Position numbers and translations under genes: made by a program | Shown here: positions 4,489-61,755 of the stretch, piece by piece | Numbering within the stretch: position 1 is the stretch's first letter | Layout: each line of letters starts with the position of its first letter | Notes under the pieces: model-generated | Databases searched by the model: none | What the model saw: the letters and a program-made list of their open reading frames with translations, nothing else | Told to the model about the DNA's origin: nothing | Source: Bdellovibrionales bacterium | GTDB lineage: Bacteria > Bdellovibrionota > Bdellovibrionia > Bdellovibrionales > JAUICD01 | NCBI GenBank assembly: GCA_965203275.1 | Contig: OZ241865.1 | Coordinates: 340,581-404,580 of the forward strand | Direction: 5' to 3' | DNA length: 64,000 bases

Positions 4489-4504
4489 TCCATCGTATGG
4501 TTTG

Positions 4505-6434: not shown

Positions 6435-6497
6435 AAATCAATATATTTCTTATTATTTCAGGATGCTCAAATCTCAAATATTATAGAATTTCACAGC

Positions 6498-7775: not shown

Positions 7776-7970
7776 AAATTCTCTTTTTAAATAGCTTTAG
7801 TTTTATTTTTTTTTGTATACTTAAAATAAATCTTTTTATTTGATTATTTTTGATTATTGACAAATGAGTTTACAAGTAGAGTTTAAACATTTTAGCATAG
7901 AAGTAAAGTTATTTCAAGATTTTATGGATGGCCAATATACAAATAAAAACTTTATTGTTTGAAGCTTCTT

Positions 7971-8762: not shown

Positions 8763-8828
8763 ATGAAATTATAAGTAAGTTAAACTTTGATGATTTGAAA
8801 GCCTCAAAATCTATAAATTCTAAAGAAT

Positions 8829-10046: not shown

Positions 10047-10127
10047 GGCATACATATTTTTATTTGTCAAACTACAAAACAATCATGTATAGCCAGAGGC
10101 TTTAGTAATGATAAAGAGAGCTTTTTT

Positions 10128-10850: not shown

Positions 10851-10966
10851 AATGATGTATTTAGACAAAAGAGTCCCTTGTGGTCTCTTTTTTTATTTAA
10901 AGTTTAAAGATTTGATTGTCTTTTTATTTATACCATAATAGTCTTTTAAAAAATAAGGGGGATATT

Positions 10967-11905: not shown

Positions 11906-11972
11906 TATGTGTGCTTTTTAAATATTTCTAATATGCAATAACTTTTAGACAGAAAAATAAAGCACATCTTAA

Positions 11973-13825
<1,853 letters not shown>

Positions 13826-19489: not shown

Positions 19490-19601
19490 TCATTTTGATA
19501 CAAATCACTGATATTTCTTAAAAAATTCTCAAATAATAGTTAAGTCCCTTGAAAAGATGCCGATACAGTACTTAAGGCTATTAAGTAGCTTAGAGAAGTA
19601 T

Positions 19602-33611: not shown

Positions 33612-34731
33612 ATTTTTTAAATTCTTTTATTCCTGCTTTTCTTAATTGATATATCTCTACAAAAATTGGATCTTTTGTCTCATAACCACGTCCCATTTCC
33701 TCAAGGCCATCATAATCCACAAAAACCACACCTCCTTCGCCCCATCTAGCTAGGTTTGGCCCTTGTTTGAACTTTTGGATCATATCTTCCCAAGCCGAGG
33801 AATTTTGGTTTTCTTCAAAAGCTTCTTGTGATAAATAAATATCAAAATCCACACAAGCAATATAAGCCGGTGTCCCCCTCACAACAGAATAATATTGTTT
33901 ATCTATCCATTGTTTGGTATTATTCAAATCAGTAAAAACACTAAATTTGCCATAACGAGATTTTTTTATTTGATCTAAAAAATCAGTATCTAAGTCACAT
34001 AAATGGCAAATTTTTTCTATCAGCTTTAAAACTTGTGTACTTATAGATTTTTCATCTTGTATTCTTTTTAAAGCTGTATTGATACCATCTTTTAATTTTG
34101 ATTGAGGGATTTTTTCATCTATAATTTGACTTAGTTTGAGTGCATCTTGTTTTAACTTTTCATATTCTTCTTTATTTTTCTTATATGTAATAACAGTTTC
34201 TTGAAAGAGAGAATAAATATTTGAAAGAGATAAAGACAAGGAAGCAGATTGTAATATCTTCACTAAAGGCTTTCCTAAAAGTTTTATTGTGGGATCCGCA
34301 TGTTCAAAAGGATGGTTATGGAGATTCACTTTAGGGTGATCAGAAAATTCAGATTTTTTATAATGGGTGTCTTTCCTTTCAAAAAAAGTCGTGATATGAG
34401 GTTCTGATATTTTTTTAATAGCTACTGTTTGTACTATGGCATCTAAGGTAGAATTAAGCTTTTGAATAGACGGCTTTTGACTATCTTCTATTTTCTTTAT
34501 CTTTTGCGTCTCCCCCATAAGGTAAGAAAATAATCCCTTGAGAGAACTCTCCCTGACAAGAGATAAGACTTTTTGAGAGCTATGTTTGGGGTGAGGAATT
34601 AATTTAATATCCTTTTCTCCTGTCTCTTGTGGTGGATAAAGAAATAATTTGCCAATTTTTATTCTCTCCCATGCTTTGTCTTGCCTGATATAAATACCGC
34701 CTGACCGGACTTTTAATTTAATGTATGACAT
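33571..34731 (-). CDS. Cas5-like Cascade subunit with a large helical insertion (candidate large-subunit substitute)
   Basis: GAGGA SD 6 nt before the ATG at 34731; the track ORF starts at a TTG at 34737. N-terminus YIKLKVRSGGIYIRQ....SSLKGLFSYLMGE resembles the Cas5e beta1 plus helix (YLILRLAGPMQAWGQ...TRSGLLGLLGACLG). The middle 200 aa or so are Lys/Glu-rich and helical. Family assignment is tentative. Confidence 0.5.
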   Translation of the reverse strand: MSYIKLKVRSGGIYIRQDKAWERIKIGKLFLYPPQETGEKDIKLIPHPKHSSQKVLSLVRESSLKGLFSYLMGETQKIKKIEDSQKPSIQKLNSTLDAIVQTVAIKKISEPHITTFFERKDTHYKKSEFSDHPKVNLHNHPFEHADPTIKLLGKPLVKILQSASLSLSLSNIYSLFQETVITYKKNKEEYEKLKQDALKLSQIIDEKIPQSKLKDGINTALKRIQDEKSISTQVLKLIEKICHLCDLDTDFLDQIKKSRYGKFSVFTDLNNTKQWIDKQYYSVVRGTPAYIACVDFDIYLSQEAFEENQNSSAWEDMIQKFKQGPNLARWGEGGVVFVDYDGLEEMGRGYETKDPIFVEIYQLRKAGIKEFKKYDWEKDNESKAKK

Positions 34732-34733
34732 AA

Positions 34734-35666
34734 TCAATCCTCAGTTACTTCTTTAAATTCTTTGAAAAAATGATGAAATTCTATCTTACTTAATTCTTCT
34801 TTCAGTTTAGACTCTTCAGCATCTATTGTATCTTCACCATCAAAAAAAGAAACTTTAAGTGATCCCTTTTGATAAGCTAATCTGGATCCTGCTTTTAACC
34901 CATGAATACTACGTATTCTTAGAAAAACAACTTTCACAAGGTGCCTTATTTGTTTTTGATTCAATAAAATCCCCTCTCTTGGAACTTTATAAATAGCATC
35001 TTTGTCAATGTATTTTTTGATTTCAAGAGCAGAGTCGACACCATGTTTTTCAAAATACTCTTTAAGAAGCTCTAAACATTTATCTTTATCTTTTTTGTTG
35101 ATCATAGAAAAATCGTTATCTACCCCATAGAGAGATAAAAATTGAAGCTCTTTAAGATTTATCCCACCTAAAAGCTTTTGTTTCCTATAGGGCAGGTTAT
35201 CTTTTGAAAACATGGACGTATCACTTTTATCTTCACCCTTTTTATTTTTCTCTTTTCCTTCTTTTGGCTTAGAACTACTCCCTTGATCAAAAACAATATC
35301 TAAATGATCAGTAGTTACCGCATCTGCTATATGTAAAGGAGAACATTTTTTAAATCCATCATCGGGTGATAAATAACCTCTTAAAAGCCCTACTTCTGAG
35401 GCTACCATTTCAATAAATTTATCAGCAAAAATTTTATTTGAAGGTTGTCTGGGTTGAAGGTCTTTAAATATCTCATGCCTCAAACAACGCGAAGATGTGT
35501 AATCTTTTCTTCTCTTTTGACTTTGATCTACATTTTGAATTTCAGTGAAAGTCTTTGCACACAAATGATTCTCATGTCCATCTCTTTTACCAACTTTGTT
35601 GTAATTATAGACACCCCAAACATCTAAAAGACCTTCAAAGGTAATAGTTTTAATTGATTGACTCAT
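34734..35666 (-). CDS. cas7: Cas7 (Cascade backbone, RAMP)
   Basis: AAGGAGG SD. DYTSSRCLRHEIFKDL matches the Cas7 motif (.S..slR...r). KCSPLHIADAV resembles the second conserved strand. 310 aa, a typical Cas7 size. Confidence 0.7.
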   Translation of the reverse strand: MSQSIKTITFEGLLDVWGVYNYNKVGKRDGHENHLCAKTFTEIQNVDQSQKRRKDYTSSRCLRHEIFKDLQPRQPSNKIFADKFIEMVASEVGLLRGYLSPDDGFKKCSPLHIADAVTTDHLDIVFDQGSSSKPKEGKEKNKKGEDKSDTSMFSKDNLPYRKQKLLGGINLKELQFLSLYGVDNDFSMINKKDKDKCLELLKEYFEKHGVDSALEIKKYIDKDAIYKVPREGILLNQKQIRHLVKVVFLRIRSIHGLKAGSRLAYQKGSLKVSFFDGEDTIDAEESKLKEELSKIEFHHFFKEFKEVTED

Positions 35667-36741: not shown

Positions 36742-38141
36742 GAGCTTGTCCCTGATATCGGTGAAAATAGACGGCTCATAAATTAGTTTTTAATTGTTTT
36801 TTCTTTTTGTCAATAATAATTTTTTTTAAACTTTGTTCTAATTGTTCTAAATCTTTAAATCCTTTAATGCTTTTGAAATGTTTTTCTGCTTCCAATAGAC
36901 TCACAGCAGACCATCTTAAAACTTGATCTGAAGAAGAACTCCAATTCTTTACCCTCCGAACTTTTTCCCTCACAACTGAAAAAACAGACTCAATAGGATT
37001 TGTCGATGATAATGACCTCCTTAAAAGTAATGAAACTCCAAGCTTGATCGTTGTCAGTGTCTCCATCTCTGCCTCTTTTAAAGATGTGAATGCTGAATGA
37101 TTGACCCGCTTTAACCAGCTTAATAAAGACTCATGCTCTAACTTCGATGACAACTCATCTGGCATACCATGTAACTTCTTCCAACGACTCTTAAACTCTA
37201 TGTGACGACTTGGAGGTAAGCAACTCAGAATATTTCTCTCTTTATGCTGAATACAACGCTGAACTACTGAACGACCTGAAAATACTCTATCTATTCCCTT
37301 CCTTAATGCTTTGCTACCATCAATCACAAAAAGATAACCCTTCTCTTTATCAAGACCACGACCTATAAGTCCCTCCAGAAGATCACGGCAAACTTCCCAA
37401 CTCTCTGTATTGCCTTCTTTAAGACCTAATATAACCTTCTTACCTTGATCTGTGATTCCTAAGGCCACTATAACCAGCGTAGAACCAATACCCACTCCAT
37501 CTATCATTATCGCTGGAAACCTGTACTTACTTAAATCACGATTGTTAATCGACTCAAGGGCTTGTTTAGATGACTTATTAAAAACTCTACTCACACTACT
37601 CCTAGAAAGTTTAAGCCCTCCTGAAATATCATCTAAAAGATGATTGTAATTCCGTGATGAAACTCCACTCATGGCATGTTTTAAAACACGATCACTGAGT
37701 ATGTCATAGTGTTGAAGGGCTGAATAGATCTTAAGCCTCACTTCACGACCTGACTGCTTAACACGAGGCTTCCTAACCTGCAACTTTTGACCACCTGCAA
37801 GTATGCTACCTTTATCACTACCAGCTCTATGATATGGTGTATCTCTATGACGACCATAACGCTCACCGCAAAGCTCTAATAGCTCTGCTTCAAAAAAACC
37901 ATAGACCGAACAAAGAATAGATGACTTGATCTCATCCTCTACAATCTGACGAATTTCTGACAAAGTATTGGCTGAAACTTGAAATGAATGACTATTTTTG
38001 GTACACTTCATAATGGCTCCTTTCTTTTTATTTTTAAAAGTTAATTGTTAATAAAATTTGGTTGGCTGAAATATGCCAACCAGGAGCCTTCTATCTTAAC
38101 ATCTTCTCTAAGAAAAATTCACCGAATTATAGGACATGCTC
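36742..38141 (-). mobile_element. IS256-family insertion sequence (1400 bp) with imperfect terminal IRs and an 8-bp target-site duplication
   Basis: Left end GAGCTTGTCCCTGATATCGGTGAAAAT versus the reverse complement of the right end GAGCATGTCCTATAATTCGGTGAATTT (about 19 of 27 matches). Direct repeat ATTTTTAT at 36734-36741 and 38142-38149. Confidence 0.85.
36776..38011 (-). CDS. IS256/Mutator-family transposase
   Basis: 411 aa. AIMIDGVGIG...VIVALGI, LFVIDGSKALRKG, VQRCIQHKERNIL, NPIESVFS are typical DDE Mutator-family blocks. Confidence 0.9.
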   Translation of the reverse strand: MKCTKNSHSFQVSANTLSEIRQIVEDEIKSSILCSVYGFFEAELLELCGERYGRHRDTPYHRAGSDKGSILAGGQKLQVRKPRVKQSGREVRLKIYSALQHYDILSDRVLKHAMSGVSSRNYNHLLDDISGGLKLSRSSVSRVFNKSSKQALESINNRDLSKYRFPAIMIDGVGIGSTLVIVALGITDQGKKVILGLKEGNTESWEVCRDLLEGLIGRGLDKEKGYLFVIDGSKALRKGIDRVFSGRSVVQRCIQHKERNILSCLPPSRHIEFKSRWKKLHGMPDELSSKLEHESLLSWLKRVNHSAFTSLKEAEMETLTTIKLGVSLLLRRSLSSTNPIESVFSVVREKVRRVKNWSSSSDQVLRWSAVSLLEAEKHFKSIKGFKDLEQLEQSLKKIIIDKKKKQLKTNL

Positions 38142-39713: not shown

Positions 39714-40994
39714 TTATTCTGTAGCTCCGGCCTCTTGCAATAACCTTGCAATTTCAGTACGGTTATGTCCACTAGATTGACGTCTAGTAGTCCATAATAA
39801 AGCCGTACGGCCATTATTGTCTTGATGATTGACGTTAGCTCCGGCCGCTATCAATAACTTTACAATCTCTACATGGCCTCTATCACTAAAAACATTTCTT
39901 ATCCAGTCTATAGATTCGTTATAATGATCGATTGAAGACACCACTATTGGATACTTTCCTTTCTGTAGGAGTCCATTAACAGCATGCATTAAAGGTGTCT
40001 CCCCATCTGCATTTGCTCGATTGACGTTAGCTCCGGCCGCTATCAATAGCTTTACAATCTCTGTATGGCCCCACTTACTAGCCAGCAATAAAGCTGTCTC
40101 GTCCTTCTTTGAGAAATAACGCACAAATCGACTTCTAATGTTTGGATCGGCTCCAGCCGCTAGCAATAACTTTACAACCTCTGTATAGCCATCCTTACTA
40201 GCCCACATTAAAGCCGTATAGCCACCATAGCCTTGATAATTGACGTTAGCTCCGGCCGCTATCAATAACTTTACAGATTCAATGGTTTCAAGCATGAAGG
40301 GAGTCTTGCCACTAGCATACATTAAAAGTGTATTGTGGGTTTTGTCCACCGGCATATTAACATTCATACAAGTACTTTTTAAAAATAGCTTTAAAATTTC
40401 TGTATTTTTGACAAGGGACTTTCTAAACAAAGAATACCCTTTATAAGAAACCTTGTTATTATGTATAAAACCACCCTCAGAGTCTCCAGCCTCGTCCTCT
40501 TTAGTATACGAAAGACTACCAGGGTCTGCTCCGGCCGCTAGCAAATTCTTTATACCCTCTATATCACCATTAATAACAGCCTGTTTTAAATTTGCACGAC
40601 CATGACGAGGCCTGCAAGTGTATGTTGTTGGAGTTGGTCTTAAAACTACCTGTGGAGCTGGAGTTGGTCCTGGAATCAGAGTTGCCGTTGGTTCTGGAAT
40701 CCGATCTGGAGTTGGTCCTGGAATTGGAGCTGTAGATGGTCCCGGAGTTGGAGATGGTCCGGGAGTCGGAGCTGGAGTTGCCGTTGGTCCTGGAGTCGAA
40801 GTTGTAGATGGTCCTGGAACCGGAACTGGAATCGAAGCTGGCTTTTGTTCTATTTGAGAACTGGACGTCTTACTGTCAAAACGGCTTTTCGCACAGTTGT
40901 TAAAACTGAATACCAAACAAGACAAAATAAGCAATGCTAACGATAAATAAGCAAGCCTTTTTTTAGATTTTAGATTTTTAAACATTTTAAACAT
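39714..40994 (-). CDS. ankyrin-repeat exported protein/lipoprotein; paralogue of 19602-20726
   Basis: Signal anchor ..LALLILSCLVFSFNNC. Pro/Thr-rich linker (PVPVPGPSTTSTPGPTATPAPTPGPSPTPGPS), then ANK units with HTEIVKLLIAAGANVN. The last codons and about 40 nt of 3' flank are near-identical to the other gene. Confidence 0.85.
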   Translation of the reverse strand: MFKMFKNLKSKKRLAYLSLALLILSCLVFSFNNCAKSRFDSKTSSSQIEQKPASIPVPVPGPSTTSTPGPTATPAPTPGPSPTPGPSTAPIPGPTPDRIPEPTATLIPGPTPAPQVVLRPTPTTYTCRPRHGRANLKQAVINGDIEGIKNLLAAGADPGSLSYTKEDEAGDSEGGFIHNNKVSYKGYSLFRKSLVKNTEILKLFLKSTCMNVNMPVDKTHNTLLMYASGKTPFMLETIESVKLLIAAGANVNYQGYGGYTALMWASKDGYTEVVKLLLAAGADPNIRSRFVRYFSKKDETALLLASKWGHTEIVKLLIAAGANVNRANADGETPLMHAVNGLLQKGKYPIVVSSIDHYNESIDWIRNVFSDRGHVEIVKLLIAAGANVNHQDNNGRTALLWTTRRQSSGHNRTEIARLLQEAGATE

Positions 40995-51477: not shown

Positions 51478-52431
51478 TTAAAAAGCTCCCCTTCCCCTTC
51501 TTCTACTTGGAGTTTCTGGCCATGAAGGTGGTTGTGCTACTATTGCATCTTCTTCTACTACTCCTCTATCAACTTTTGTTCCTGCTTCATGTATACAATC
51601 AATTGCTGTTGGACATTTACCATTTCTAAGACGAGAACATGAAGCAAAATTAGAATACGCATTCCTTCCCTCACGAGTGAATCCAATATCACACTGAACG
51701 TATGAAGCACATAACTGAGTTGTTCCACAGCCATTGTTGCTAATAAGATAAGGATCTATATCAATAGTGTCTATACTATAAGGAATATCATACCCAATAT
51801 AACGACAGTTAATGAGATCTCTAGTTGAACTGGGGGTACGATTACGAGTTGGACTAGAGTTATTATTACTGATAATATCGCGTATTGTACCCATTCGGCT
51901 ACTGGGAAGGAGATCTTTCTTGCTGTAAAAGTATGTATCATTCCTTAGTCCATATCCCCCTTCTGCAACTTCAATTTGATCTTCACGGTCTAATATTATG
52001 TCTTTTTCTGCTAGTTGATCCATAACCCACCGATTTTCGCGTAAGGGAATATTATAATAATTCTTGATTGGCCCTGCTACGTCTGCATCTCTTTTGCCAA
52101 TGTTAAGATGAACGATCTCTCTTTTTCTAGTACGAGGATTAGTGATTAGCAGTCCTAAACTACTAAGCTTTGTCTCATTATCAATATAGCCACTCGCACC
52201 TTCACAGTTCATTCTCACCGATCTCGATGATGACGACGCACAAGAAGATGTCGAACCTATGAGTCTAGGACATCTTGACTGGACTACATCAACATATTCA
52301 TCACAATACACAGCACTTACTCTTGCCTGTACAACAGAACTCAAACCCACTACACTGCAAAATGACAGAATAGCTGGTAATAAAGATTTTGATTGCATTA
52401 TTTTCCAAAATAAATATTTTAACTTTTTCAT
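51478..52431 (-). CDS. secreted Cys-rich hypothetical protein (317 aa)
   Basis: AAGGAGGA SD. Signal peptide ending ..VVQA. About 16 Cys residues. No family recognised. Probably co-transcribed with 51139-51444. Confidence 0.65.
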   Translation of the reverse strand: MKKLKYLFWKIMQSKSLLPAILSFCSVVGLSSVVQARVSAVYCDEYVDVVQSRCPRLIGSTSSCASSSSRSVRMNCEGASGYIDNETKLSSLGLLITNPRTRKREIVHLNIGKRDADVAGPIKNYYNIPLRENRWVMDQLAEKDIILDREDQIEVAEGGYGLRNDTYFYSKKDLLPSSRMGTIRDIISNNNSSPTRNRTPSSTRDLINCRYIGYDIPYSIDTIDIDPYLISNNGCGTTQLCASYVQCDIGFTREGRNAYSNFASCSRLRNGKCPTAIDCIHEAGTKVDRGVVEEDAIVAQPPSWPETPSRRRGRGAF

Positions 52432-52895: not shown

Positions 52896-53032
52896 TCAGA
52901 TATGTTTCATTTTGAAACATACTCATTAAGAATGATCTTTGATTAAGTAAGAAATATAATAAGAAATAAGAAATAGTTTGCTGGTGGATAAATTATAAAA
53001 AAAGGCTAAATACCTAGAAAACCCTTTATTGC

Positions 53033-53078
<46 letters not shown>

Positions 53079-53204
53079 AACCTTTCAGTGAAATTTGTTG
53101 TCATAAATAAACCACCTTTCACTATTATTATCGGCTAAAATACTTTTACCACTTTAATTTTATTTAAAATTTAGGCTTTTGTCTTACTTAAAAGCATGTC
53201 TTGT

Positions 53205-53572
53205 CTCACTAAAAATAAACCAGCCGTTTGCTTCACTAAAAGTAAACCAACCTCTGGTTGCTTTTTGGCGATGACCACGACGACTTTCGTCGTCGATAAA
53301 ATGGTCATCACCTCAAAAGTCCGTTTACTTTTAGTAGAAAGGATCCTCTCCTCTTTTAACACCATGTTAAGGAAAAAGAACTTCATTCGTAAACCCGCTT
53401 GCTCTTGAGGTAATAAAAGAAATTTTCCTTAACATAGTGTAAAGGAATAAAAGGATCCTCCCTACTCAAAATAAATAGATTTTCTAGGCAGTTAGCCTTT
53501 GATCGACGGCGGTAGCCGTCGGGCTAACTGCCATAAAACATGCCAGAGGCATGATTTATTTTGAGTGAAATG
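53205..53572. repeat. intergenic palindromic-repeat mosaic (block K)
   Basis: Three palindromic modules directly downstream of the giant gene. Confidence 0.9.
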
Positions 53573-53582
53573 TTATTGCTGA

Positions 53583-56500
53583 CTATCCTCTAGGTATTCC
53601 ATCAGGCATTTCACTTGGTATATTGGGGCGATTATCATGCCATATAATACAGCGGAAAATATGAAGTCGACATATTAAAGCCCGACGACAACTCACACTA
53701 CTTCCTCCATGTTGCCCTACACATTTCCATCTATGAAACTCATCACGTTCAGTTACATCCTGAATAGCTCCTGAGCGACAACCATGACCTCTTGGTTTTG
53801 TGTTACATTTACCATTGATAGGTCTATTTCTCTGACAAGATTGATTTGTGCCACCATTGAGTCCTTCACAAGTCCATCTAAATAGATCATCTGTATCTGC
53901 ATGTCCGTTGGGATTAGATCTTCCTGCAGAACAAGCATATTTTTGAGCGGTATTACATACACCGTTTATAGTTTTAGGTTTTTGACAATTCGTCGCTGTT
54001 GTTCCACCATGTTCTCCTACACAATGCCACTTATAATCTGTGCGGGTATCGGCAATGGCATTGTCATTGGCTTGCCCACTTTGACAACCATTGCGTACTT
54101 CGTTGTTGCAAGCCCCATTGACAGGTTTGTGTTTTTGACAATTCGTCGCTGTTGTTCCACCATGCTGTCCCACACATTGCCACTTATAATGCATATCTGT
54201 ATCTTCAATGGCACCATCGTTAGCCTGTCCGGCTTGACAACCATTGCGTACATCATTATTGCAAGCTCCATTGACAGGTTTGCGTTTTTGACAATTCGTC
54301 GCTGTTGTTCCACCATGTTGCCCTACACAATGCCACTTATAATCTGTGCGGGTATCAGCAATAGCGTTGTCATTGGCCTGTCCAGTTCGGCAACTATTTC
54401 TAACAGCATTATTGCAAGCCCCATTGACAGGTTTTAGTTTTTGACAATTACTGACTGTTGTTCCACCATGTTGTCCTACACATTGCCATTTATAATGCAG
54501 GTCTGTATCGGCAATGGCATTGTCATTGGCTTGCCCTACTCGACAACCATTTCGAACAGCATTATTGCAAGCTCCATTGACAGGTTTGCGTTTTTGACAA
54601 TTCGTCGCAGTTGTTCCACCATATTGTCCTACACATTGCCATTTATAATGCATGTCTGTATCTGCTGCATCTTTGAGCGAACCACTTTGACAACTATTTC
54701 GGACAGCGTTATGGCAGGCACCATTGACAGGTTTGCGTTTTTGACAATTAGTCGCTGACGTTCCACCATGTTGTCCTACACATTGCCATTTATAATGCAG
54801 GTCTGTATCTGCTACATCTTTGAGCGAACCACTTTGACAACTATTTCGAACAGCATTATTGCAGGCACCATTAACAGGTTTGAGTTTTTGACAATTAGTC
54901 GCTGTTGTTCCGCCATGTTGTCCTACACATTGCCATTGATAATGTGTATCTGAATCTGCTAGATCTTTAAGCAGACCAGTTTGACAACGATTTTGAATAG
55001 CATTGTTACAAGCTCCATTGATTGGTTTAAGTTTTTGGCAATTTGTAACTGTTTGTCCGCCATGTTGTCCTATACACTGCCATTGATAATGTGTATCTGA
55101 ATCTGCTACATCTTTGAGCAAACCAGTTTGACAACGATTTTGAACAGCATTATTGCAAGCCCCATTAACAGGTTTGCGTTTTTGACAATTAGTCGCCGTT
55201 GTTCCACCATGTTGCCCTACACAATGCCACTTATAATCTGTGCGGGTATCAGCAATGGCATTGTCATTGGCCTGTCCAGTTCGACAGCCATTTTGAACAG
55301 CATTATTGCAAGCTCCATTAACAGGTTTGCGTTTTTGACAATTCGTCGCCGTTGTTCCGCCATGTTGTCCTACACAATGCCACTTATAATGCAGGTCTGT
55401 ATCTGCAATGGCATTGTCATTGGCCTGCCCAGCTTGACAACCATTTTGGAGGGCATTATTGCAAGCCCCATTGACAGGTTTGCGTTTTTGACAGGTTGTA
55501 GCTGTTCCACCATGTTGTCCTATACATTGCCACTTATAATGCATATCTGTACTAGCTATATTACGACTACTGGCTTGTCCAGCTTGACAACCATTGCGTA
55601 TGTTATTATTGCAAGCCCCATTGACAGGTTTGAGTTTCTGGCAGTTAGTGGCACTTCTTCCGCCGTGTTGTCCTACACATTGCCATTGATAATGTGTATC
55701 TGAATCTGCTACATCTTTGAGCGAACCACTTTGACAACCATTTCGAACAGCATTATTACAAGCCCCATTGACGGGTTTAAGTTTTTGGCAATTTGTAACT
55801 GTTTGTCCGCCATGTTGTCCTACACAATGCCACTTATAATGTGTGTTGCTATCGGCAATGGCATTGTCATTGGCTTGCCCTGTTCGACAGCCATTTTGAA
55901 CTGCATTATTGCAAGCTCCATTGACAGGTTTGAGTTTTTGACAGGTGGTGGCTGTTGTTCCACCATGTTGCCCTACACAATGCCACTTATAATGTGTGTT
56001 GCTATCGGCAATGGCGTTGTCATTGGCTTGCCCTGTTCGGCAACCATTTTGAACAGCATTATTACATGCTCCATTGACAGGTTTTAGTTTTTGACAGGTA
56101 GTGACTGTTGTTCCCCCATGTTGCCCTATACATTGCCATTGATAATGTGTATCTGTACTAGCTATGTTACGGGCTTGTCCAGCTTGACAACCATTGCGTA
56201 CGTTATTATTACAAGCCCCATTGACAGGTTTTGATTTTTGACAATTAGTCGCCGTTGTTCCGCCATGTTGCCCTACACAATGCCACTTATAATCTGTGCG
56301 GGTATCGGCAATGGCATTGTCATTGGCTTGCCCTGTTCGGCAACCATTTTGAACAGCATTATTACATGCTCCATTGACAGGTTTTAGTTTTTGACAATTA
56401 GTTGCTGTTGTTCCACCATGTTGCCCTACACAATGCCATTTATAATCTGTGCTGGTATCGGCAATAGCATTGCTATTGGCTTGTCCAGTTCGACAGCCAT

Positions 56501-59500
56501 TTTGAACAGCATTATTGCAAGCTCCATTGATTGGTTTGAGTTTTTGACAGGTGGTGGCTGTTGTTCCGCCATGTTGTCCTACACATTGCCACTTATAATG
56601 TGTGCTACTGTCGGCAATGGCATTGCTATTGGCTTGCCCTGTTCGGCAACCATTTTGAACAGTATTATTACAAGCTCCATTGACAGGTTTTAGTTTTTGA
56701 CAATTACTAGCCGTTGTTCCGCCATGTTGCCCTACACAATGCCACTTATAATGTGTGTTGCTGTCAGCAATAGCATTGCTATTGGCTTGTCCAGTTCGAC
56801 AGCCATTTTGAACGGCATTGTTACAAGCTCCATTGACAGGTTTGAATTTCTGGCAGTTAGTGGCACTTCTTCCGCCATGTTGTCCTACGCACTGCCATTT
56901 ATAATGTGTATCTGAATCTGCCACATCTTTAAGCAAGCCAGCTTGACAACGATTTTGAACAGCATTATTACAAGCTCCATTGATGGGTTTAAGTTTTTGA
57001 CAGGTAGTGACTGTTGTTCCACCATGTTGCCCTATACATTGCCATTTATAATGTGTATCTGAATCTGCTACATCCTTGAGCAGACCAGTTTGGCAACGAT
57101 TTCGAACTGCATTATTGCAAGCTCCATTGATGGGTTTGAGTTTTTGACAAGTGGTGACATTTGTTCCGCCGTGTTGTCCTACACAATGCCACTTATAATG
57201 TGTGTTGGTATCAGCAATAGCATTGCTATTAGCTTGTCCAGTTCGACAGCCATTTCGAACTGCATTATTGCAGGCTCCATTAACAGGTTTTGCTTTTTGG
57301 CAATCTGTAGCTGCTCTTCCTCCATGTTGCCCTACACATTGCCACTTATAATGTGTATCTGAATCTGCTACATCCTTGAGCAGGCCAGTTTGACAACGAT
57401 TTTGAACAGCATTATTGCAAGCCCCATTGATAGGCTTGAGTTTTTGACAATTAGTAACAGTTGTTCCACCATGTTGCCCTAAACAATGCCACTTATAATG
57501 TGTATTGGTGTCAGCAATAGCATTGTCATTGGCTTGTCCTACTCGGCAACCATTTTGAACAGCATTATTGCAAGCCCCATTGACAGGCTTAATTTTTTGA
57601 CAATTTTCTGCATTTTGTCCATTTCGGCCCACACACTGCCATTTATAATGTGTGTCGGTATCGTGTGTGTCATTTAATTTGCCTGCTTGACAATCATTTG
57701 TAATGGCATTATTACATTGTCCATGTTCAGATATAGAAAACTGACAATTACTATCCGTTGTTCCACCATTTCTGCCAACACAATCCCACTTATGAAATCC
57801 ATTAGCATTGGGTTTGCGTTGAGCCGTACCTGATAAACAACGATCTCTTTGTGTATTGTCACAACGGCCATTATTTGTGTTCCATTGACAGGAGGCAGTT
57901 GTTCCACCACGTTGTCCTTCACAAGACCACTTCTTTATATTAGGATTTTGACGATCAAAACCTGCATTGACGAATTTACCACTTTGGCAATTAAGAGTTA
58001 AATAATTACAGGCTCCATGTACTGGTTTTATTTTTTGACAATTAATGGCTGTTGTTCCGCCATGTTGCCCCAGACATTTCCATCTATAATGTGTACTGGT
58101 ATCATCAATGGCACTGTCATCAGCTTGCCCAACTCGGCAACCATTTTGAACAGTATTATTGCAAGCCCCATTGACAGGTTTTATTTTTTGACAATTAATG
58201 GCCGTTGTTCCGCCATGTAAACCTGCACAATGCCACCTATAATGTGTGTTGGTATCAGCAATAGCATTGTCATTGGCTTGCCCTGCTCGACAACCATTTT
58301 GAACAGCATTATTACAAACTCCATTGCTTGGCTTTAATTTTTGACAATTAATGGCTGTTGTTCCGCCATGTTGCCCTACACATTGCCATCTATAATGAGT
58401 GTTGGTATCAGCAATAGCATTGTCATTGGCTTGTCCTACCCGACAACCATTTTGAACGGCATTATTGCAAGTTCCATTAATTGGTTTTATTTTTTGACAA
58501 TTAATGGCTGTTGTTCCACCATGTTGTCCTACACAATGCCACTTATAATGTGTGCGGGTATCAGCAAGAGCATTGTCATTAGCTTGCCCTGCCCGACAAC
58601 CATTTTGAACAGCATTATTACAAACTCCATTGATTGCTTTTAGTTTTTGACAATTGGTAGCCGTTGTTCCGCCATGTTGCCCTACACAATGCCATCTGTA
58701 ATGAGTGTCTGTATCAGCAATGACATTGTCATTTGATTGCCCTTTTTGACAGCCATTTTGAACGGCATTATTACAAGCTCCATGGACAGCTTTAAATTTT
58801 TGACAATTGGTAGCTGTTGTTCCGCCATGTTGCCCTACACAATGCCACCTGTAATGGGTGTCTGTGTCAACAACAGCATTGTCATTGGCTTGACCTTTTT
58901 GACAGCCATTTTGAACGGCATTGTGACAGACTCCATTAATTGGTTCATTTTCACTATTAAGTGCAACAGATCCCCTTTGACATGTATGATGACTTGGTCT
59001 GTCTTCTGCAGTTCCAAAAAAGCAAATATCTTCATCTGTCGGACAATAACTATAATAAGCTTGCTGGTAAGATGAATCTCCTTTGATGGCTGTGACCTCT
59101 ATTTCAAATTCTTGACATTCTCTGCTTGATATAGAATATAAAGGAGCAAAATTCTGCTTGGGATCTTCTATAGATCTTCTTTTGTCATCACCTGTTGTAG
59201 TTGTAGGAAACATATCAACTCTGCCATTAACACAGTTGATAGGGTATATCTGTGAGCCTTTTTGAAAAGAACAACTATCTGCTGCTGCAATATCAACTGC
59301 TATATACTGAGAAGATAATCTATCGTGTTTATAGATGGCATTACTTTCTAAAGACATAATAGCATTCTGTCCATCACTATCTAAAATAAGAGGCGGATTA
59401 AAATAAGGAGATGTATCTTCAGTGACTTGAAGTGTTTTTTGTCTGTAAACAGTACATTGACTCTCTGAAGATTCTACAGGATTGGCTTTGACTTCTAGGA

Positions 59501-60251
59501 TTAAATCAGAACCTACAGAAGCTGTCGTAGGGATATTAAAAGTAACAGTTCCAGCTTCTGAAGTGATCACCTGTTGAGATGGTAATGTGACCCTCCACCG
59601 AATAGAAGAAAATAAAAGAGGATCTCGAATAGTGAAAGTTGCTGATTGACCTACATTTACTGCACCGCTTTGTAACTTAATTTCTAAAATATCAGTTTGG
59701 GAACAAGTTTCTCCTATAACAACTATTTTGTTAAATTGACCTAGTAGGTTATTCATGTCCACTGTTTTATATGATTTTGCAAAGATATTATAAATTCCAG
59801 GTTGAACAAAACGGTGTTTATAAGTAGCAGTGCTACTAGTGGCTTTATTCACAATTGTTTCAAAACCTTTCTTGATAGTCCATTGAAAGTAATTAGAGAG
59901 AGGATCTGCGTGAATGACCTGCATATTCACATTGGTATTAATAGGAAAATAATTAACAGGATCTATTTCATTCCCCTGTTCATTGATAAAGACTATACTT
60001 CCTTTATTACTATTAGGAGAAGATCTTATTTCATCATCATCATCTTCTTCATCACTCTGCTCCTTTTGCTGTTGTTGCTGTTGCTGTTGTTGTCGCTGTC
60101 GTTGTGGATTTTCATTATCTGAAGATACAAGAGAATTAGGCTCACAATTTTGAAATAACAAAATACATGTCAAGGTCAATAAAACCATAAAAGCTATGAC
60201 ATGTACCTTTCCATAAAGATGGCTTATAAGTTTATCATTTTGTGTTGACAT
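53583..60251 (-). CDS. giant exported protein (2222 aa): poly-Q/acidic tract, PKD/Ig-like region, then 35 tandem 49-51-aa four-Cys repeats
   Basis: N-terminal anchor VIAFMVLLTLTCILLFQNC, Q11 run plus DEEDDDDE. PKD-like segment (YFQWTIKKG...ATYKHRFVQPGIYNIFAKSY). Repeats have consensus GACNNAVQNGCRTGQANDNAIADTNTHYKWHCVGQHGGTTATNCQKLKPVN. Confidence 0.85.
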   Translation of the reverse strand: MSTQNDKLISHLYGKVHVIAFMVLLTLTCILLFQNCEPNSLVSSDNENPQRQRQQQQQQQQQKEQSDEEDDDDEIRSSPNSNKGSIVFINEQGNEIDPVNYFPINTNVNMQVIHADPLSNYFQWTIKKGFETIVNKATSSTATYKHRFVQPGIYNIFAKSYKTVDMNNLLGQFNKIVVIGETCSQTDILEIKLQSGAVNVGQSATFTIRDPLLFSSIRWRVTLPSQQVITSEAGTVTFNIPTTASVGSDLILEVKANPVESSESQCTVYRQKTLQVTEDTSPYFNPPLILDSDGQNAIMSLESNAIYKHDRLSSQYIAVDIAAADSCSFQKGSQIYPINCVNGRVDMFPTTTTGDDKRRSIEDPKQNFAPLYSISSRECQEFEIEVTAIKGDSSYQQAYYSYCPTDEDICFFGTAEDRPSHHTCQRGSVALNSENEPINGVCHNAVQNGCQKGQANDNAVVDTDTHYRWHCVGQHGGTTATNCQKFKAVHGACNNAVQNGCQKGQSNDNVIADTDTHYRWHCVGQHGGTTATNCQKLKAINGVCNNAVQNGCRAGQANDNALADTRTHYKWHCVGQHGGTTAINCQKIKPINGTCNNAVQNGCRVGQANDNAIADTNTHYRWQCVGQHGGTTAINCQKLKPSNGVCNNAVQNGCRAGQANDNAIADTNTHYRWHCAGLHGGTTAINCQKIKPVNGACNNTVQNGCRVGQADDSAIDDTSTHYRWKCLGQHGGTTAINCQKIKPVHGACNYLTLNCQSGKFVNAGFDRQNPNIKKWSCEGQRGGTTASCQWNTNNGRCDNTQRDRCLSGTAQRKPNANGFHKWDCVGRNGGTTDSNCQFSISEHGQCNNAITNDCQAGKLNDTHDTDTHYKWQCVGRNGQNAENCQKIKPVNGACNNAVQNGCRVGQANDNAIADTNTHYKWHCLGQHGGTTVTNCQKLKPINGACNNAVQNRCQTGLLKDVADSDTHYKWQCVGQHGGRAATDCQKAKPVNGACNNAVRNGCRTGQANSNAIADTNTHYKWHCVGQHGGTNVTTCQKLKPINGACNNAVRNRCQTGLLKDVADSDTHYKWQCIGQHGGTTVTTCQKLKPINGACNNAVQNRCQAGLLKDVADSDTHYKWQCVGQHGGRSATNCQKFKPVNGACNNAVQNGCRTGQANSNAIADSNTHYKWHCVGQHGGTTASNCQKLKPVNGACNNTVQNGCRTGQANSNAIADSSTHYKWQCVGQHGGTTATTCQKLKPINGACNNAVQNGCRTGQANSNAIADTSTDYKWHCVGQHGGTTATNCQKLKPVNGACNNAVQNGCRTGQANDNAIADTRTDYKWHCVGQHGGTTATNCQKSKPVNGACNNNVRNGCQAGQARNIASTDTHYQWQCIGQHGGTTVTTCQKLKPVNGACNNAVQNGCRTGQANDNAIADSNTHYKWHCVGQHGGTTATTCQKLKPVNGACNNAVQNGCRTGQANDNAIADSNTHYKWHCVGQHGGQTVTNCQKLKPVNGACNNAVRNGCQSGSLKDVADSDTHYQWQCVGQHGGRSATNCQKLKPVNGACNNNIRNGCQAGQASSRNIASTDMHYKWQCIGQHGGTATTCQKRKPVNGACNNALQNGCQAGQANDNAIADTDLHYKWHCVGQHGGTTATNCQKRKPVNGACNNAVQNGCRTGQANDNAIADTRTDYKWHCVGQHGGTTATNCQKRKPVNGACNNAVQNRCQTGLLKDVADSDTHYQWQCIGQHGGQTVTNCQKLKPINGACNNAIQNRCQTGLLKDLADSDTHYQWQCVGQHGGTTATNCQKLKPVNGACNNAVRNSCQSGSLKDVADTDLHYKWQCVGQHGGTSATNCQKRKPVNGACHNAVRNSCQSGSLKDAADTDMHYKWQCVGQYGGTTATNCQKRKPVNGACNNAVRNGCRVGQANDNAIADTDLHYKWQCVGQHGGTTVSNCQKLKPVNGACNNAVRNSCRTGQANDNAIADTRTDYKWHCVGQHGGTTATNCQKRKPVNGACNNDVRNGCQAGQANDGAIEDTDMHYKWQCVGQHGGTTATNCQKHKPVNGACNNEVRNGCQSGQANDNAIADTRTDYKWHCVGEHGGTTATNCQKPKTINGVCNTAQKYACSAGRSNPNGHADTDDLFRWTCEGLNGGTNQSCQRNRPINGKCNTKPRGHGCRSGAIQDVTERDEFHRWKCVGQHGGSSVSCRRALICRLHIFRCIIWHDNRPNIPSEMPDGIPRG
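53682..58934 (-). repeat. coding tandem repeat array: about 35 units of 147-153 nt inside the giant gene
   Basis: Runs from the first repeat Gly (aa 440, 58934) to ..SCRR (aa about 2190). Two interleaved subtypes: QNGC(R/Q).GQAN(D/S)NAIAD (51 aa) and QN(R/S)CQ(T/S)G(L/S)LKDVADSD (49 aa). Confidence 0.9.
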
Positions 60252-60678
60252 TCTGCTTCCTATTCTATCTTTAACAAAATTCGCTTTATCATCTATGAAT
60301 ATTTTTTATGTATACTCTAGTCATCGGCAGGAAGTTTTTAAAACTTAAGACCTACTTAAAAAAAAATTATATCTAATGCTTTCCAAAAATAAAGTTGATA
60401 GATTTCAATGATTTACAAAAATAAAAAAAATATGTTACGGCAGTTTGAGTATTTGTGGTGAGGTTTTAGACAGTTCATTAAAATTGCTAAATGCAAAATT
60501 TGCATAAAATAAACAACAAGGTCTTGCTTTATAAATGGCTTTCAATTAAAGTGGCTTTTAAAATAGTTATAAGAGCAGTCAATTTGTATTTTTTAAGCTA
60601 TAAACTATTTTGATGTTTTACATTATTAGATGTTTAATTGGTTTTAACTTTTTAATTAATTAATAAGAGGAGTGTCAT

Positions 60679-61755
60679 GTGAGCCAAGCAAGTAAAAAGT
60701 TAAATTTTGCGGAATACATTTGGTTAGATGGGGCCAGCCCTGTTCAAGAGTTGCGTTCTAAAACCAAAATGTTATTTTATAAGGAAGATCGAGATTTAAG
60801 TTCTTTCCCTGAATGGAGTTTTGATGGTTCTTCAACTTGGCAAGCTTTAGGTAGAAATTCTGATTGTATCTTAAAGCCTGTCTTTTCAGCACCAGATCCA
60901 TTAAGAGATGGAGAACACTATCTTGTTCTTTGTGAAGTTTTAAATGCAGATGGCACCCCACACCCTACAAACAAAAGGGTTGGTTTGTCTGATCTGATAA
61001 AAAAGGTGTCTGATCAAGACCCTTATATTGGTTTTGAGCAAGAGTACACTCTCTTTTCAGGAGAGTTGGAGTCAGAAATGTGGCCAGTGGGTTGGCCTAA
61101 AGGAGGTTATCCTATTCCTCAAGGTCCTTTTTATTGTGGTGTAGGAGCAGGTCGTGTCTATGGGCGTGAAATTGCAGAAGAACATGCTCAAGCGTGTGCC
61201 TTAGCCAACTTAAATATTTATGGTATCAATGCAGAAGTGATGCTTTCTCAATGGGAGTTTCAAGTAGGTTATCGTGGTCGAAAAGACGAACCATCTGATC
61301 CTCTCACAATAGCAGATCACCTTTGGATTGCTCGCTATCTTCTCAAGCGTATTGCTGAAAGTTGTGATGTTTCTGTTTCTTTTTACAATAAACCTATTTT
61401 AGGAGATTGGAATGGAGCAGGTATGCATACAAACTTTTCTACAAAAGCTATGCGAAGCAAAGGTCAAGGTCAGGGAATAGAGGCTATTCATGCAGCTATT
61501 GCCAAATTAGAAGCTCATCATCATGACCATATCAAGAATTATGGTCATAACTTAAAACTGCGTTTGACAGGTCTTCACGAGACTTGCCATATTGATGAGT
61601 TCAAAGCAGGGGTTTCTAATCGAGGAGCTTCTATACGTATTCCTTTGTCAACGCATCAAGCTGGTTGTGGTTATTTTGAAGATAGAAGACCTGGTGCAAA
61701 TGCTGACCCTTATGTCGTTGCAACACAAATTGTCAGTACAGTTTGTGGCAATTAA
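60679..61755 (+). CDS. glnII: glutamine synthetase type II (eukaryote-like GSII)
   Basis: GTG start after AGAGGAG. AEYIWLDG..ELRSKTK, PEWSFDGSST, FEQEYTLF, PQGPFYCGVGA, NAEVMLSQWEFQVG, WNGAGMHTNFST, NRGASIRIP, YFEDRRPGANADPY. Collinear with my recollection of animal/plant GS. Confidence 0.93.
   Translation: MSQASKKLNFAEYIWLDGASPVQELRSKTKMLFYKEDRDLSSFPEWSFDGSSTWQALGRNSDCILKPVFSAPDPLRDGEHYLVLCEVLNADGTPHPTNKRVGLSDLIKKVSDQDPYIGFEQEYTLFSGELESEMWPVGWPKGGYPIPQGPFYCGVGAGRVYGREIAEEHAQACALANLNIYGINAEVMLSQWEFQVGYRGRKDEPSDPLTIADHLWIARYLLKRIAESCDVSVSFYNKPILGDWNGAGMHTNFSTKAMRSKGQGQGIEAIHAAIAKLEAHHHDHIKNYGHNLKLRLTGLHETCHIDEFKAGVSNRGASIRIPLSTHQAGCGYFEDRRPGANADPYVVATQIVSTVCGN

What the first reader, a model, noticed from the sequence alone, without database searches (positions are those of the whole stretch)
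53583..60251. 2222-aa exported protein made of 35 tandem four-Cys repeats of an unrecognised type
Seen: after an N-terminal anchor, a poly-Q (11 consecutive Q in a QRQRQ11 tract, about 60060-60104) plus acidic tract, and about 350 aa of PKD/Ig-like sequence, the protein consists of 35 consecutive 49-51-aa units. The consensus is G-A-C-N-N-A-V-Q-N-G-C-R-T-G-Q-A-N-D-N-A-I-A-D-T-N-T-H-Y-K-W-H-C-V-G-Q-H-G-G-T-T-A-T-N-C-Q-K-L-K-P-V-N. Four Cys are invariant (spacing C-x7-C-x18/20-C-x11-C), with a W-x-C-x-G-x-x-G-G core. Two subtypes alternate irregularly (..GQANDNAIADT.. and ..GLLKDVADSD..), and the terminal repeats are the most diverged. DNA identity between internal units is high, so the array should be recombinogenic. 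I cannot assign the repeat to a known domain family. Inference: a disulfide-stabilised beads-on-a-string surface fibre or adhesin, possibly length-variable.
Basis: partly seen in the sequence, partly recalled or inferred. Interest (0 to 1): 0.65.

Follow-up and report, generated by a model that had tools for sequence, protein, structure and literature searches.

The report
Giant lipoprotein of 35 disulfide mini-domains
A 2222-residue bacterial surface protein is built from 35 tandem copies of a small four-cysteine, all-beta domain that no domain or structure database I could search recognises; the domain is nevertheless widespread in metagenomes, and the protein most likely forms a long, lipid-anchored stalk or adhesin.

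Summary
An intact 2222-aa ORF lies on the minus strand at 53583-60251. It has 35 tandem units of 47-51 aa, each with four invariant Cys, one invariant Trp and conserved Gly. Minor corrections apply: the poly-Q run is 9 consecutive Q, not 11; the "PKD/Ig-like" label for the N-terminal 360 aa has no support; and unit DNA identity averages 82%, so it is moderate rather than very high.

The unit matches nothing in Pfam, NCBIfam, PDB sequences or profiles, or Foldseek against PDB. It is not an orphan, though. A profile of the 35 units finds 1294 protein clusters, often next to typical extracellular domains. AlphaFold2 with a family alignment gives a very confident two-unit model (pLDDT 97) in which each unit is a compact five-strand beta mini-domain.

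The N-terminus is a signal peptide ending in an "FQNC" motif. That motif is conserved in at least 17 relatives, which also share a Cys-containing N-terminal module of about 330 aa. Three paralogues in this genome have different C-terminal ends. Unit numbers range from 13 to about 55 among relatives, and the arrays show concerted evolution.

Best reading: a lipid-anchored, disulfide-stapled surface stalk or adhesin. It is a new domain family inside a familiar kind of protein.

The parts
53583..60251 (-). Complete coding sequence of the 2222-aa protein, stop codon included
   Evidence: Single uninterrupted ORF. The identical product is called on the 2.58-Mb source contig ctg22194_51x_c. AGGAAG lies 5 nt upstream of the ATG.
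60144..60251 (-). Signal peptide with a lipobox-like end, aa 1-36: two Lys in the n-region, an 18-aa hydrophobic core, then F-Q-N-C36
   Evidence: Sequence read. 'FQNC' at the end of the hydrophobic segment is conserved in at least 17 homologues that carry the same N-terminal module. Another predicted lipoprotein in the window ends in FNNC.
60030..60104 (-). Low-complexity linker, aa 50-74: QRQRQ9 followed by an acidic tract (DEEDDDDE, aa 67-74)
   Evidence: The orthologue P0008 also has Q-rich tracts at this position.
58935..60014 (-). Conserved N-terminal module, aa 80-439. It is about 330 aligned positions long, has 8 invariant Cys, and belongs to no known family.
   Evidence: Alignment A4 of 12 homologues: 27-54% identity to the window copy and 29 invariant columns. 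No Pfam match at E<=0.01. No PDB profile match; best E 0.35.
53673..58934 (-). Array of 35 tandem four-Cys units of 47-51 aa, aa 440-2193
   Evidence: Codon positions 1+2 are 89% identical between units and position 3 is 70%. AlphaFold2 model of units 17-18: pLDDT 97.1.
57579..58016 (-). Island of three divergent units (7-9, aa 746-891), conserved in position with units 3-5 of the orthologue P0008
   Evidence: Units 7, 8 and 9 match P0008 units 3, 4 and 5 (55-62% identity). For units 7 and 8 this is better than any match within the window array (47%, 41%). Unit 9 has a closer match in its own array (unit 14, 67%).
53586..53672 (-). C-terminal tail, aa 2194-2222: ...CRLHIFRCIIWHDNRPNIPSEMPDGIPRG
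   Evidence: Conserved almost word for word in P0008 (CRIHIFTCIIWHDNRPNIPSEMPQTIPGL) and in no other family member examined. No Pfam or NCBIfam match.
53539..53553 (-). Terminator-like hairpin plus T-run, 30 nt after the stop codon
   Evidence: This is a consensus scan only.

Best explanation
**What it is.** The gene encodes a cell-surface fibre of an uncultured Gram-negative bacterium with low G+C.

**How it is made and anchored (inferred).**
- The N-terminal signal peptide sends the protein through Sec.
- The conserved Cys36 of the atypical lipobox 'FQNC' is lipidated and tethers the protein to a membrane.
- A Q-rich and acidic linker and a conserved N-terminal module of about 330 aa, which contains Cys, sit next to the membrane.

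**The array.** The 35 units each fold as an independent all-beta mini-domain of about 50 aa (predicted with high confidence). Two disulfides are inferred to lock each unit, about 70 in total. Joined head to tail, the units would form a stiff rod. Its length is roughly 100 nm, estimated only from domain size. The rod holds the short, conserved, Cys/His-containing C-terminal tail away from the cell.

**What it does (inferred).** It works as a stalk or spacer with an adhesive tip or surface, that is, an adhesin or a coat fibre.

**How it evolves.**
- Shown by comparison with relatives: the array grows, shrinks and homogenises by unequal recombination between units.
- Shown by comparison with relatives: the edge units and an internal three-unit island stay fixed.
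- The three paralogues in this genome share the anchor, N-module and stalk plan. They carry different C-terminal ends, which fits a common stalk presenting different tips.
For: **The gene is real.**
- The ORF is intact and lies on a contig whose name gives 51x coverage and circular status.
- All units differ at the DNA level. The maximum identity is 93% and the longest exact repeat is 80 nt.
- Third codon positions diverge far more (70% identity) than positions 1+2 (89%). This indicates purifying selection on each unit and argues against assembly duplication.

**The unit is a real, conserved domain.**
- C3, C11, W30, C32 and C44 are kept in 770 of 772 units from 168 proteins.
- AlphaFold2 with a 99-row family alignment gives pLDDT 97.1 and pTM 0.77, with five strands per unit.

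**It is extracellular.**
- The signal peptide ends in a conserved FQNC.
- Family members carry signal peptides or lipoboxes.
- They combine the unit with FG-GAP, RCC1, Big_7/13, fn3, TSP1, Laminin_G_3, Peptidase_S8, PPC and DUF285 domains.
- The genome encodes LolA, TatA/TatC, a TonB-family protein (PF13103 TonB_2), PQQ-type beta-propeller repeats as in BamB-like proteins, and a MacB/FtsX-type ABC transporter with its ATPase, which points to a diderm cell.

**Stalk logic.**
- The paralogues P0163 and P0164 lie on the same chromosome. They have the same N-terminal plan and different C-termini.
- Unit number varies among relatives: 13, 14, 25, 30, 35 and about 55.
- Internal units are closest to units of their own array (84-98%) and less close to the orthologue's (at most 78%). 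Edge and island units are positional orthologues.
Against: - The lipobox is atypical, with Gln at -2 and Asn at -1. Lipidation is therefore not certain, and the segment could be an uncleaved signal anchor.
- Surface exposure of a lipoprotein in a diderm needs a dedicated route. I found none near any of the three paralogues.
- With the anchor at the N-terminus, the most conserved non-repeat module is near the membrane, and the distal tip is only a 29-aa tail. That is small for a ligand-binding head.
- I could not read disulfide connectivity or inter-domain geometry, because the tool returns no model coordinates.
- There is no expression, localisation or ligand evidence.
- The organism and its habitat are unidentified.
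Confidence: 0.6

Rival explanations
1. Multivalent lectin-like fibre. Under this reading the four-Cys units are the ligand-binding elements themselves, for example binding a glycan or polysaccharide on a host, prey or particle surface. The 35 copies would then give avidity rather than mere length.
For: - Several polar or aromatic positions outside the Cys/Gly scaffold are conserved family-wide: N9 75%, D23 83%, T24 57%, T26 62%, Y28 75%.
- The unit occurs with Laminin_G_3 and other binding modules.
- The only suggestive fold match is an uncultured-phage protein annotated with a chitobiase/hexosaminidase C-terminal domain (BFVD, E 0.015, probability 1.00). Such proteins are often carbohydrate-active.
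Against: - No sequence or profile similarity to any carbohydrate-binding family appears in Pfam.
- The conserved residues could equally be structural, forming the core, turns or inter-domain contacts.
- The two subtypes differ exactly in the D18-D23 loop. That argues against one fixed binding site.
Confidence: 0.2
2. Envelope-internal or released structural protein. Here the protein is not surface-exposed. It would lie in the periplasm or along the inner face of the outer membrane, or it would be shed into the medium as a matrix or biofilm component.
For: - By default the Lol pathway places lipoproteins on the periplasmic face of the outer membrane, and LolA is encoded nearby.
- No surface-export system is linked to any paralogue.
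- Disulfide formation only requires the periplasm.
Against: - A linear rod of 35 domains would exceed periplasmic width many times over.
- Homologous units occur in proteins with plainly extracellular architectures. One example is P0009, which has a signal peptide, 29 units and a C-terminal transmembrane anchor with a basic tail.
Confidence: 0.12
3. Artefact. Under this reading the array length is an assembly expansion, or the gene is a pseudogene in the real population.
For: - Related arrays on low-coverage long-read contigs are riddled with frame changes (L002 at 2x, L003 at 5x, and L004).
- The orthologue P0008 contains 100% identical three-unit blocks, which assemblers can mis-count.
- The two records that carry the window protein appear to be the same assembly deposited in ENA and NCBI, so there is no independent replicate.
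Against: - The contig name gives 51x coverage and circular status.
- All 35 units are distinguishable. Identity is at most 93% and the longest exact repeat is 80 nt, far shorter than long reads.
- The frame stays open for 6.7 kb, and substitution patterns show selection.
- The paralogue P0163 is reproduced almost identically, with the same unit count, as P0013 in a different sample.
Confidence: 0.04

Closest known systems
Leptospira LigA/LigB (lipoprotein adhesins with tandem Big_2 domains); comparison from my own knowledge, not tested here
   Same: Both have an N-terminal lipoprotein signal followed by a long run of tandem, independently folded beta domains that form an extended surface fibre. 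In both, paralogues share the N-terminal part and differ at the C-terminus. The lipobox is relaxed; Asn at -1 is tolerated in spirochaete lipoproteins.
   Different: The repeating unit here is a four-Cys domain of about 50 aa, not a Cys-free Big_2 Ig fold of about 90 aa. No Big_2 match was found. The array has 35 units rather than 12-13. No sequence relationship exists.
Extender regions of giant Gram-negative adhesins (MpIBP, LapA, SiiE, BapA; BIg/Cadherin-like repeats); from my own knowledge
   Same: Dozens of near-identical tandem domains act as a length-setting stalk. Copy number varies between strains. Concerted evolution occurs within the array.
   Different: Those adhesins are secreted by a type I system. 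They carry a C-terminal RTX signal and an N-terminal retention module, and Ca2+ rather than disulfides stiffens them. Here there is a Sec/lipoprotein-type N-terminus, no RTX motif, and no adjacent type I secretion genes.
Eukaryotic disulfide-stapled mini-modules in tandem (EGF, thrombospondin type 1 repeat, Sushi/CCP, fibronectin type I)
   Same: The physical principle is the same. All-beta modules of 40-60 aa are held by 2-3 disulfides, have an invariant Trp or Gly, and are strung as rigid rods in extracellular proteins. TSP1 domains even co-occur with the unit in some bacterial proteins.
   Different: The Cys pattern C-x7-C-x18/20-C-x11-C with W-x-C-x-G-x-x-G-G matches none of them. Pfam models for these families do not hit the unit. 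In P0126 the TSP1 hits lie outside the four-Cys units. Foldseek against PDB finds no match.
Bacterial Cys-rich repeats already modelled (Myxococcus cysteine-rich repeat TIGR02232, DUF4215)
   Same: These are also Cys-rich tandem repeats in secreted proteins of Gram-negative bacteria.
   Different: A 251-aa, five-unit query produced no NCBIfam or Pfam match to them even at E<=1. As I recall it, their motif (CGNG..E.GE.CDDGN) is unrelated.

Membership tests
Bacterial lipoprotein (Lgt/LspA substrate) | Signal peptide with a basic n-region and a hydrophobic h-region that ends directly at a Cys | tested here: met
   K7 and K15 form the n-region, aa 16-33 are hydrophobic, and C36 follows. The Cys is conserved at this position in at least 17 homologues.
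Bacterial lipoprotein (Lgt/LspA substrate) | Canonical lipobox [LVI][ASTVI][GAS]C | tested here: inconclusive
   The sequence is F-Q-N-C, with Q at -2 and N at -1, so it is non-canonical. The motif is nevertheless strongly conserved, and a second protein in the window ends in FNNC. No lipoprotein predictor was available, and acylation cannot be tested here.
   No family at E<=0.01. Only Ig_VWA7 appears, at E 0.014 and 16 bits against a cut-off of 27. A profile of 12 homologues finds no PDB relative.
Thrombospondin type 1 repeat | WSxW layer, CSxTCGxG motif and six Cys; Pfam TSP_1, TSP1_spondin or TSP1_ADAMTS match on the unit | tested here: not met
   No TSP1 match on the window units. In P0126 the TSP1 hits and motif lie outside the four-Cys units; in P0031 the single motif match lies within the span of its units but has no Pfam TSP1 hit.
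EGF / Sushi / FN1 and other known disulfide mini-domains | Family Cys pattern and a Pfam match, or fold similarity to a solved member | tested here: not met
   No Pfam match. Foldseek against PDB gives a best E of 5.7 and TM<=0.28. A PDB profile search gives a best E of 0.39 to an unrelated protein. One caveat applies: Foldseek is weak for domains of about 50 aa.
RTX / type I-secreted giant adhesins | C-terminal RTX nonapeptide repeats with a T1SS signal, and adjacent T1SS genes | tested here: not met
   The C-terminal tail has no Pfam or NCBIfam match. The neighbours are glutamine synthetase, hydrogenase-like genes, Tsp protease and TopA.
The new four-Cys unit family itself (defined here by profile A1) | G-x-C-x(6-9)-C-x-x-G ... 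W-x-C-x-G-x-x-G-G ... C in units of about 50 aa, tandemly arranged, in secreted proteins | tested here: met
   A1 finds 1294 cluster representatives at E<=1e-3 and 122 at E<=1e-30. The four Cys and the Trp are kept in 770 of 772 units.

The most novel reading that the evidence does not exclude
The four-Cys unit defines a previously undescribed superfamily of extracellular rod-forming mini-domains, and its fold is absent from the PDB. The superfamily is used by many uncultured bacteria, probably by archaea (P0009-type architecture), and possibly by phages (BFVD hit). Within it, the 'FQNC lipoprotein + N-module + variable-length four-Cys stalk + interchangeable tip' proteins would be a lineage-specific family of surface fibres in a probably host-associated bacterium rich in ankyrin proteins.
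Probability: 0.5. Interest if true: 0.55.

Novelty: new variant of a known kind. Interest (0 to 1): 0.45.

Why it matters
**A missing domain family.** Giant repetitive surface proteins are a familiar class. The building block here is not familiar. It is a compact, confidently predictable, disulfide-stapled beta domain, found in more than a thousand protein clusters, with no Pfam or NCBIfam model and no solved relative. Defining it would annotate a recurring piece of metagenomic "dark matter" and would add a bacterial counterpart to the EGF, TSR and Sushi type of rod module.

**A case study in array evolution.** The locus shows fixed edge and island units while the interior is independently amplified and homogenised. 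One relative has a perfect three-unit higher-order repeat. The three paralogues suggest a common stalk carrying different tips.

**Limits.** None of this overturns a concept. The value lies in annotation, structural biology and possibly protein engineering (small rigid spacers), not in a new mechanism.

Tried and rejected
**Family libraries**
- Pfam and NCBIfam on the N-terminus, five units and the C-terminus gave only sub-threshold noise.
- Pfam on 37 family members found no model covering the unit.
- PHROGs gave one weak hit to a family of unknown function, E 3e-4.

**Solved structures**
- PDB sequence search found nothing.
- PDB profile searches with the unit and with the N-module found nothing meaningful.
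- Foldseek against PDB gave no match.
- Foldseek against BFVD gave one borderline phage hit.

**Structure prediction**
- Single-sequence AlphaFold2 of four units failed, with pLDDT 50. The later model was confident only once the family alignment was supplied.

**Word-indexed protein search (search for homologous proteins)**
- It returned only 5 and 7 fragments.
- With the N-module profile it returned nothing, even though P0008 and others exist.
- Its negatives are therefore uninformative here.

**Collection scans**
- tblastn against GenBank phages and PLSDB plasmids found no match.
- JGI metagenome scans with the N-module and with the unit found nothing.
- The GTDB genome scan with TopA, meant to name the organism, gave only a 49%-identical hit on a contig labelled Anaerolineaceae. 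The organism stays unidentified.

**Other checks**
- The vWA idea for the C-terminus of paralogue P0163 rests on a DxSGS-like motif seen by eye. Pfam does not confirm it.
- No sigma-54 promoter lies upstream of the gene.
- Literature searches for the motif and for 'FQNC' found nothing relevant.
- Disulfide connectivity could not be inferred from loss patterns, because all four Cys are essentially never lost. No model coordinates are available.
- The + strand ORFs of 100-191 aa inside the array are antisense by-products of the repeat, not genes.

Full report
**1. What is in the sequence**

The minus strand carries one uninterrupted ORF, 53583..60251, encoding 2222 aa. AGGAAG lies 5 nt before the ATG. 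A terminator-like hairpin lies 30 nt after the stop codon. The identical protein is called on a 2,582,838-bp contig named ctg22194_51x_c. I read that name as 51x coverage and circular, following an assembler naming convention I recall; this was not verified.

Tandem Repeats Finder reports periods of 153 and 306 nt over 53971-58945. Splitting the protein at G-x-C gives 35 consecutive units of 47-51 aa, from aa 440 to 2193. Their alignment has invariant G1, C3, C11, G14, W30, C32, G34, G38 and C44.

Of the 152 Cys in the protein, 140 lie in the array. Two subtypes alternate irregularly. One is 51 aa with GQANDNAIADT. The other is 49 aa with G(L/S)LKDVAD. A divergent island sits at units 7-9, and the last two units are also divergent.

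Corrections to the finding:
- The Q run is 9 consecutive Q, not 11. There are 11 Q in QRQRQ9, at window 60066-60104.
- The first units are not especially diverged.
- Among the twenty 153-nt units, DNA identity averages 82% and reaches 93% at most. The longest exact repeat is 80 nt.

**2. Is it real?**

Between units, codon positions 1+2 are 89% identical and position 3 only 70%. Each unit has therefore been evolving under purifying selection for a long time. An assembly expansion would instead produce identical copies.

All units can be told apart by reads much shorter than long reads. The frame is open over 6.7 kb. A paralogue from the same chromosome, P0163 (1516 aa), recurs nearly identically as P0013 (1514 aa) in a different sample.

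By contrast, related arrays on low-coverage contigs (L002 at 2x, L003 at 5x, and L004) change frame many times. This shows what a poorly supported copy looks like. I rate the artefact reading at about 4%. Read mapping would settle it.

**3. The unit is unknown to the libraries but is not an orphan**

The following searches found no match to the unit:
- Pfam-A and NCBIfam, at E<=1 for a five-unit query.
- Pfam on 37 other proteins that contain the unit.
- PDB sequences.
- A PDB profile search with a 99-row alignment.

An exhaustive HMMER search with the 51-position profile of the 35 units tells a different story. Against 1.84 billion cluster representatives it finds 1294 proteins at E<=1e-3, 478 at E<=1e-10 and 122 at E<=1e-30. 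Many hits are very large, for example 3421 aa with 33 matched stretches and 2655 aa with 45.

In 772 near-full-length units from 168 of these proteins, the four Cys and the Trp are kept in 770. G14, G34 and G38 are kept in at least 96%.

These proteins begin with signal peptides or lipoboxes. They combine the unit with FG-GAP, RCC1, Big_7/13/3_3, fn3, TSP1, Laminin_G_3, Peptidase_S8, PPC, PKD_3 and DUF285 domains. This is the usual toolkit of extracellular proteins.

One member, P0009, has a signal peptide, 29 units and a C-terminal transmembrane anchor with a basic tail. To me this looks archaeal, but that is my impression only.

In P0126 the TSP1 domains sit outside the four-Cys units, so the unit is not a divergent TSP1 repeat.

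**4. Fold**

AlphaFold2 on four units without an alignment failed, with pLDDT 50. I then supplied an alignment of 99 two-unit segments cut from the window protein and its homologues (A3). The two-unit model reached mean pLDDT 97.1 and pTM 0.77.

Each unit has the same five short strands, at about residues 2-4, 10-13, 15-17, 27-33 and 41-47, and no helix. The high pTM for a two-domain chain suggests a defined inter-unit orientation, that is, a stiff rod. This is an inference.

Foldseek against PDB gave nothing, with a best E of 5.7 and TM<=0.28. Against BFVD there was one borderline hit, to an uncultured-phage protein annotated with a chitobiase C-terminal domain (E 0.015, probability 1.00, 94 columns, 21% identity). 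That protein may carry the same unit.

Two caveats apply:
- Foldseek is insensitive for 50-aa domains.
- I had no AFDB library and no model coordinates, so I could not read disulfide pairing or rise per unit.

**5. The rest of the protein**

The N-terminus (MSTQNDKLISHLYGKVHVIAFMVLLTLTCILLFQNC...) has a basic n-region and an 18-aa hydrophobic core. It ends in F-Q-N-C36. The same 'FQNC', at the end of the hydrophobic segment, occurs in at least 17 homologues. Another predicted lipoprotein in the window, an ankyrin protein, ends in FNNC.

I therefore read FQNC as this lineage's relaxed lipobox and Cys36 as the lipidated residue. This is an inference, because the -1 and -2 residues are non-canonical.

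After a Q-rich and acidic linker comes a module of about 330 aligned positions, aa 80-439. It is shared by the same homologues at 27-54% identity and has 8 invariant Cys. It has no Pfam match and no PDB profile match.

The 29-aa C-terminal tail (CRLHIFRCIIWHDNRPNIPSEMP...) is conserved almost verbatim in the orthologue P0008 only.

**6. Paralogues and array dynamics**

The same chromosome encodes two more proteins with the FQNC signal, the N-module and four-Cys units. They are P0163 (1516 aa) and P0164 (1482 aa), at distant loci. They carry different C-terminal regions, and P0164 has extra Cys-rich inserts. No secretion system or conserved partner gene flanks any of the three.

P0008 is the orthologue, 1919 aa with 30 units, on a 2.10-Mb contig from another sample. 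Comparison with it shows three things:
- Window units 7, 8 and 35 have their best matches at P0008 units 3, 4 and 30 (55% identity), not inside their own array. Unit 9 best matches P0008 unit 5 (62%), although it has a closer match in its own array (unit 14, 67%).
- Every other internal window unit is closest to another window unit (84-98%) and only 61-78% identical to any P0008 unit.
- The interior of P0008 is a three-unit higher-order repeat with 100% identical copies.

This is concerted evolution with fixed anchor units.

Unit counts among relatives with the same N-module are 13 (P0012), 14 (P0013/P0163), 25 (P0006), 30 (P0008) and 35 (window). L004 has roughly 55 units over 8.5 kb, with frameshifts. 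Length variability between lineages is thus shown. Variability within a population was not tested.

**7. Context**

The window has 36.5% G+C, and the gene has 40.7%. The genome encodes LolA, TatA/TatC, a TonB-family protein (PF13103 TonB_2), PQQ-type beta-propeller repeats as in BamB-like proteins, and a MacB/FtsX-type ABC transporter with its ATPase. This points to a diderm.

At least three ankyrin-repeat proteins were seen. Together with the poly-Q tract, they hint at life in association with a eukaryote. This is only a hint.

I could not name the organism. A GTDB scan with TopA found only a 49%-identical hit.

**8. Interpretation**

The best-supported reading, at about 0.6, is a Sec-exported, probably lipid-anchored surface fibre. 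The 35 disulfide-stapled mini-domains would form a long, stiff stalk. Its length is on the order of 100 nm, estimated from domain size only. The stalk projects a small conserved tip, and the protein serves as an adhesin or a spacer/coat fibre. The paralogues reuse the same stalk with other tips.

The rivals are:
- The units themselves are lectin-like binding sites that give avidity (about 0.2).
- The protein is periplasmic or shed, not surface-displayed (about 0.12).
- The array is an artefact (about 0.04).

It works like the Leptospira Lig proteins or the extender regions of giant RTX adhesins. Physically it resembles arrays of eukaryotic EGF, TSR or Sushi modules. It fails the membership tests I could apply for each of these.

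**9. Verdict**

This is a new domain family within a known kind of protein. It is useful for annotation and structural biology, but not conceptually surprising. Interest is about 0.45.

Noticed in passing
window 53034-53074: A perfect (AG)x20.5 dinucleotide microsatellite lies in the 1.15-kb gap between the giant gene's stop codon and the start of the next minus-strand gene. It could be a slipped-strand switch site. Its role is unknown.
   Followed up: no
window 4507, 10441, 16822, 17942, 18191, 24228, 24752, 28508, 41410, 41676, 41893, 52530, 52675, 53312: A dispersed intergenic repeat with the core CTACTAAAAGTAAACGGACTTTTGAG occurs 14 times in 64 kb at up to 3 mismatches, against 0 expected. 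Downstream of the giant gene it is part of units of 79-147 nt, present in direct and inverted copies. It looks REP- or MITE-like.
   Followed up: partly
window 51478-52431 (-): This 317-aa protein has a signal peptide and many Cys. It has no Pfam, NCBIfam or PHROGs match. It is the next gene downstream of the giant gene. L001 also has an unannotated 306-aa gene at the matching position.
   Followed up: partly
window 19557-20726 (+) and 39714-40994 (-); also L008 3063-4130: Several ankyrin-repeat proteins are present. Two have lipobox-like N-termini, LFGC and FNNC. This suggests interaction with a eukaryotic host.
   Followed up: partly
window 31095-35666 (-): A Cas3-like HD nuclease/helicase lies at 31095-33611. 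It is followed by two ORFs with no Pfam match, at 33571-34737 and 34734-35666. This may be a divergent type I CRISPR-Cas or another defence module. TRF was run only on 53000-61000, so I did not look for a CRISPR array.
   Followed up: no
window 36776-38011 (-): A Mutator-family transposase lies between the Cas3 region and the NfeD and ankyrin genes.
   Followed up: no
L006 10001-15760 (P0008) and 6803-9565 (P0059): In a related 2.1-Mb genome the orthologue has a three-unit higher-order repeat with 100% identical copies. A 920-aa paralogue with the same FQNC signal and N-module sits directly upstream.
   Followed up: partly
L004 about 2630-12131: A relative on a 20-kb contig has the N-module followed by about 8.5 kb of four-Cys units, with 66 profile hits and roughly 55 units. 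After the 18th unit there are dozens of frame changes. I cannot tell whether this is a decayed gene or an error-rich assembly.
   Followed up: partly
window 60679-61755 (+): A short (358-aa) glutamine synthetase is transcribed divergently from the giant gene. In the source contig it is followed by hydrogenase- or complex-I-like subunit genes.
   Followed up: no
window aa 403-424 of the giant protein (about 58980-59045): The end of the N-terminal module (CPTDEDICFFG...HHTC) has the spacing C-x6-C-x-x-G...H-x-C. This resembles the first half of a unit and its W-x-C. It may be a degenerate capping unit. This was seen by eye only.
   Followed up: no
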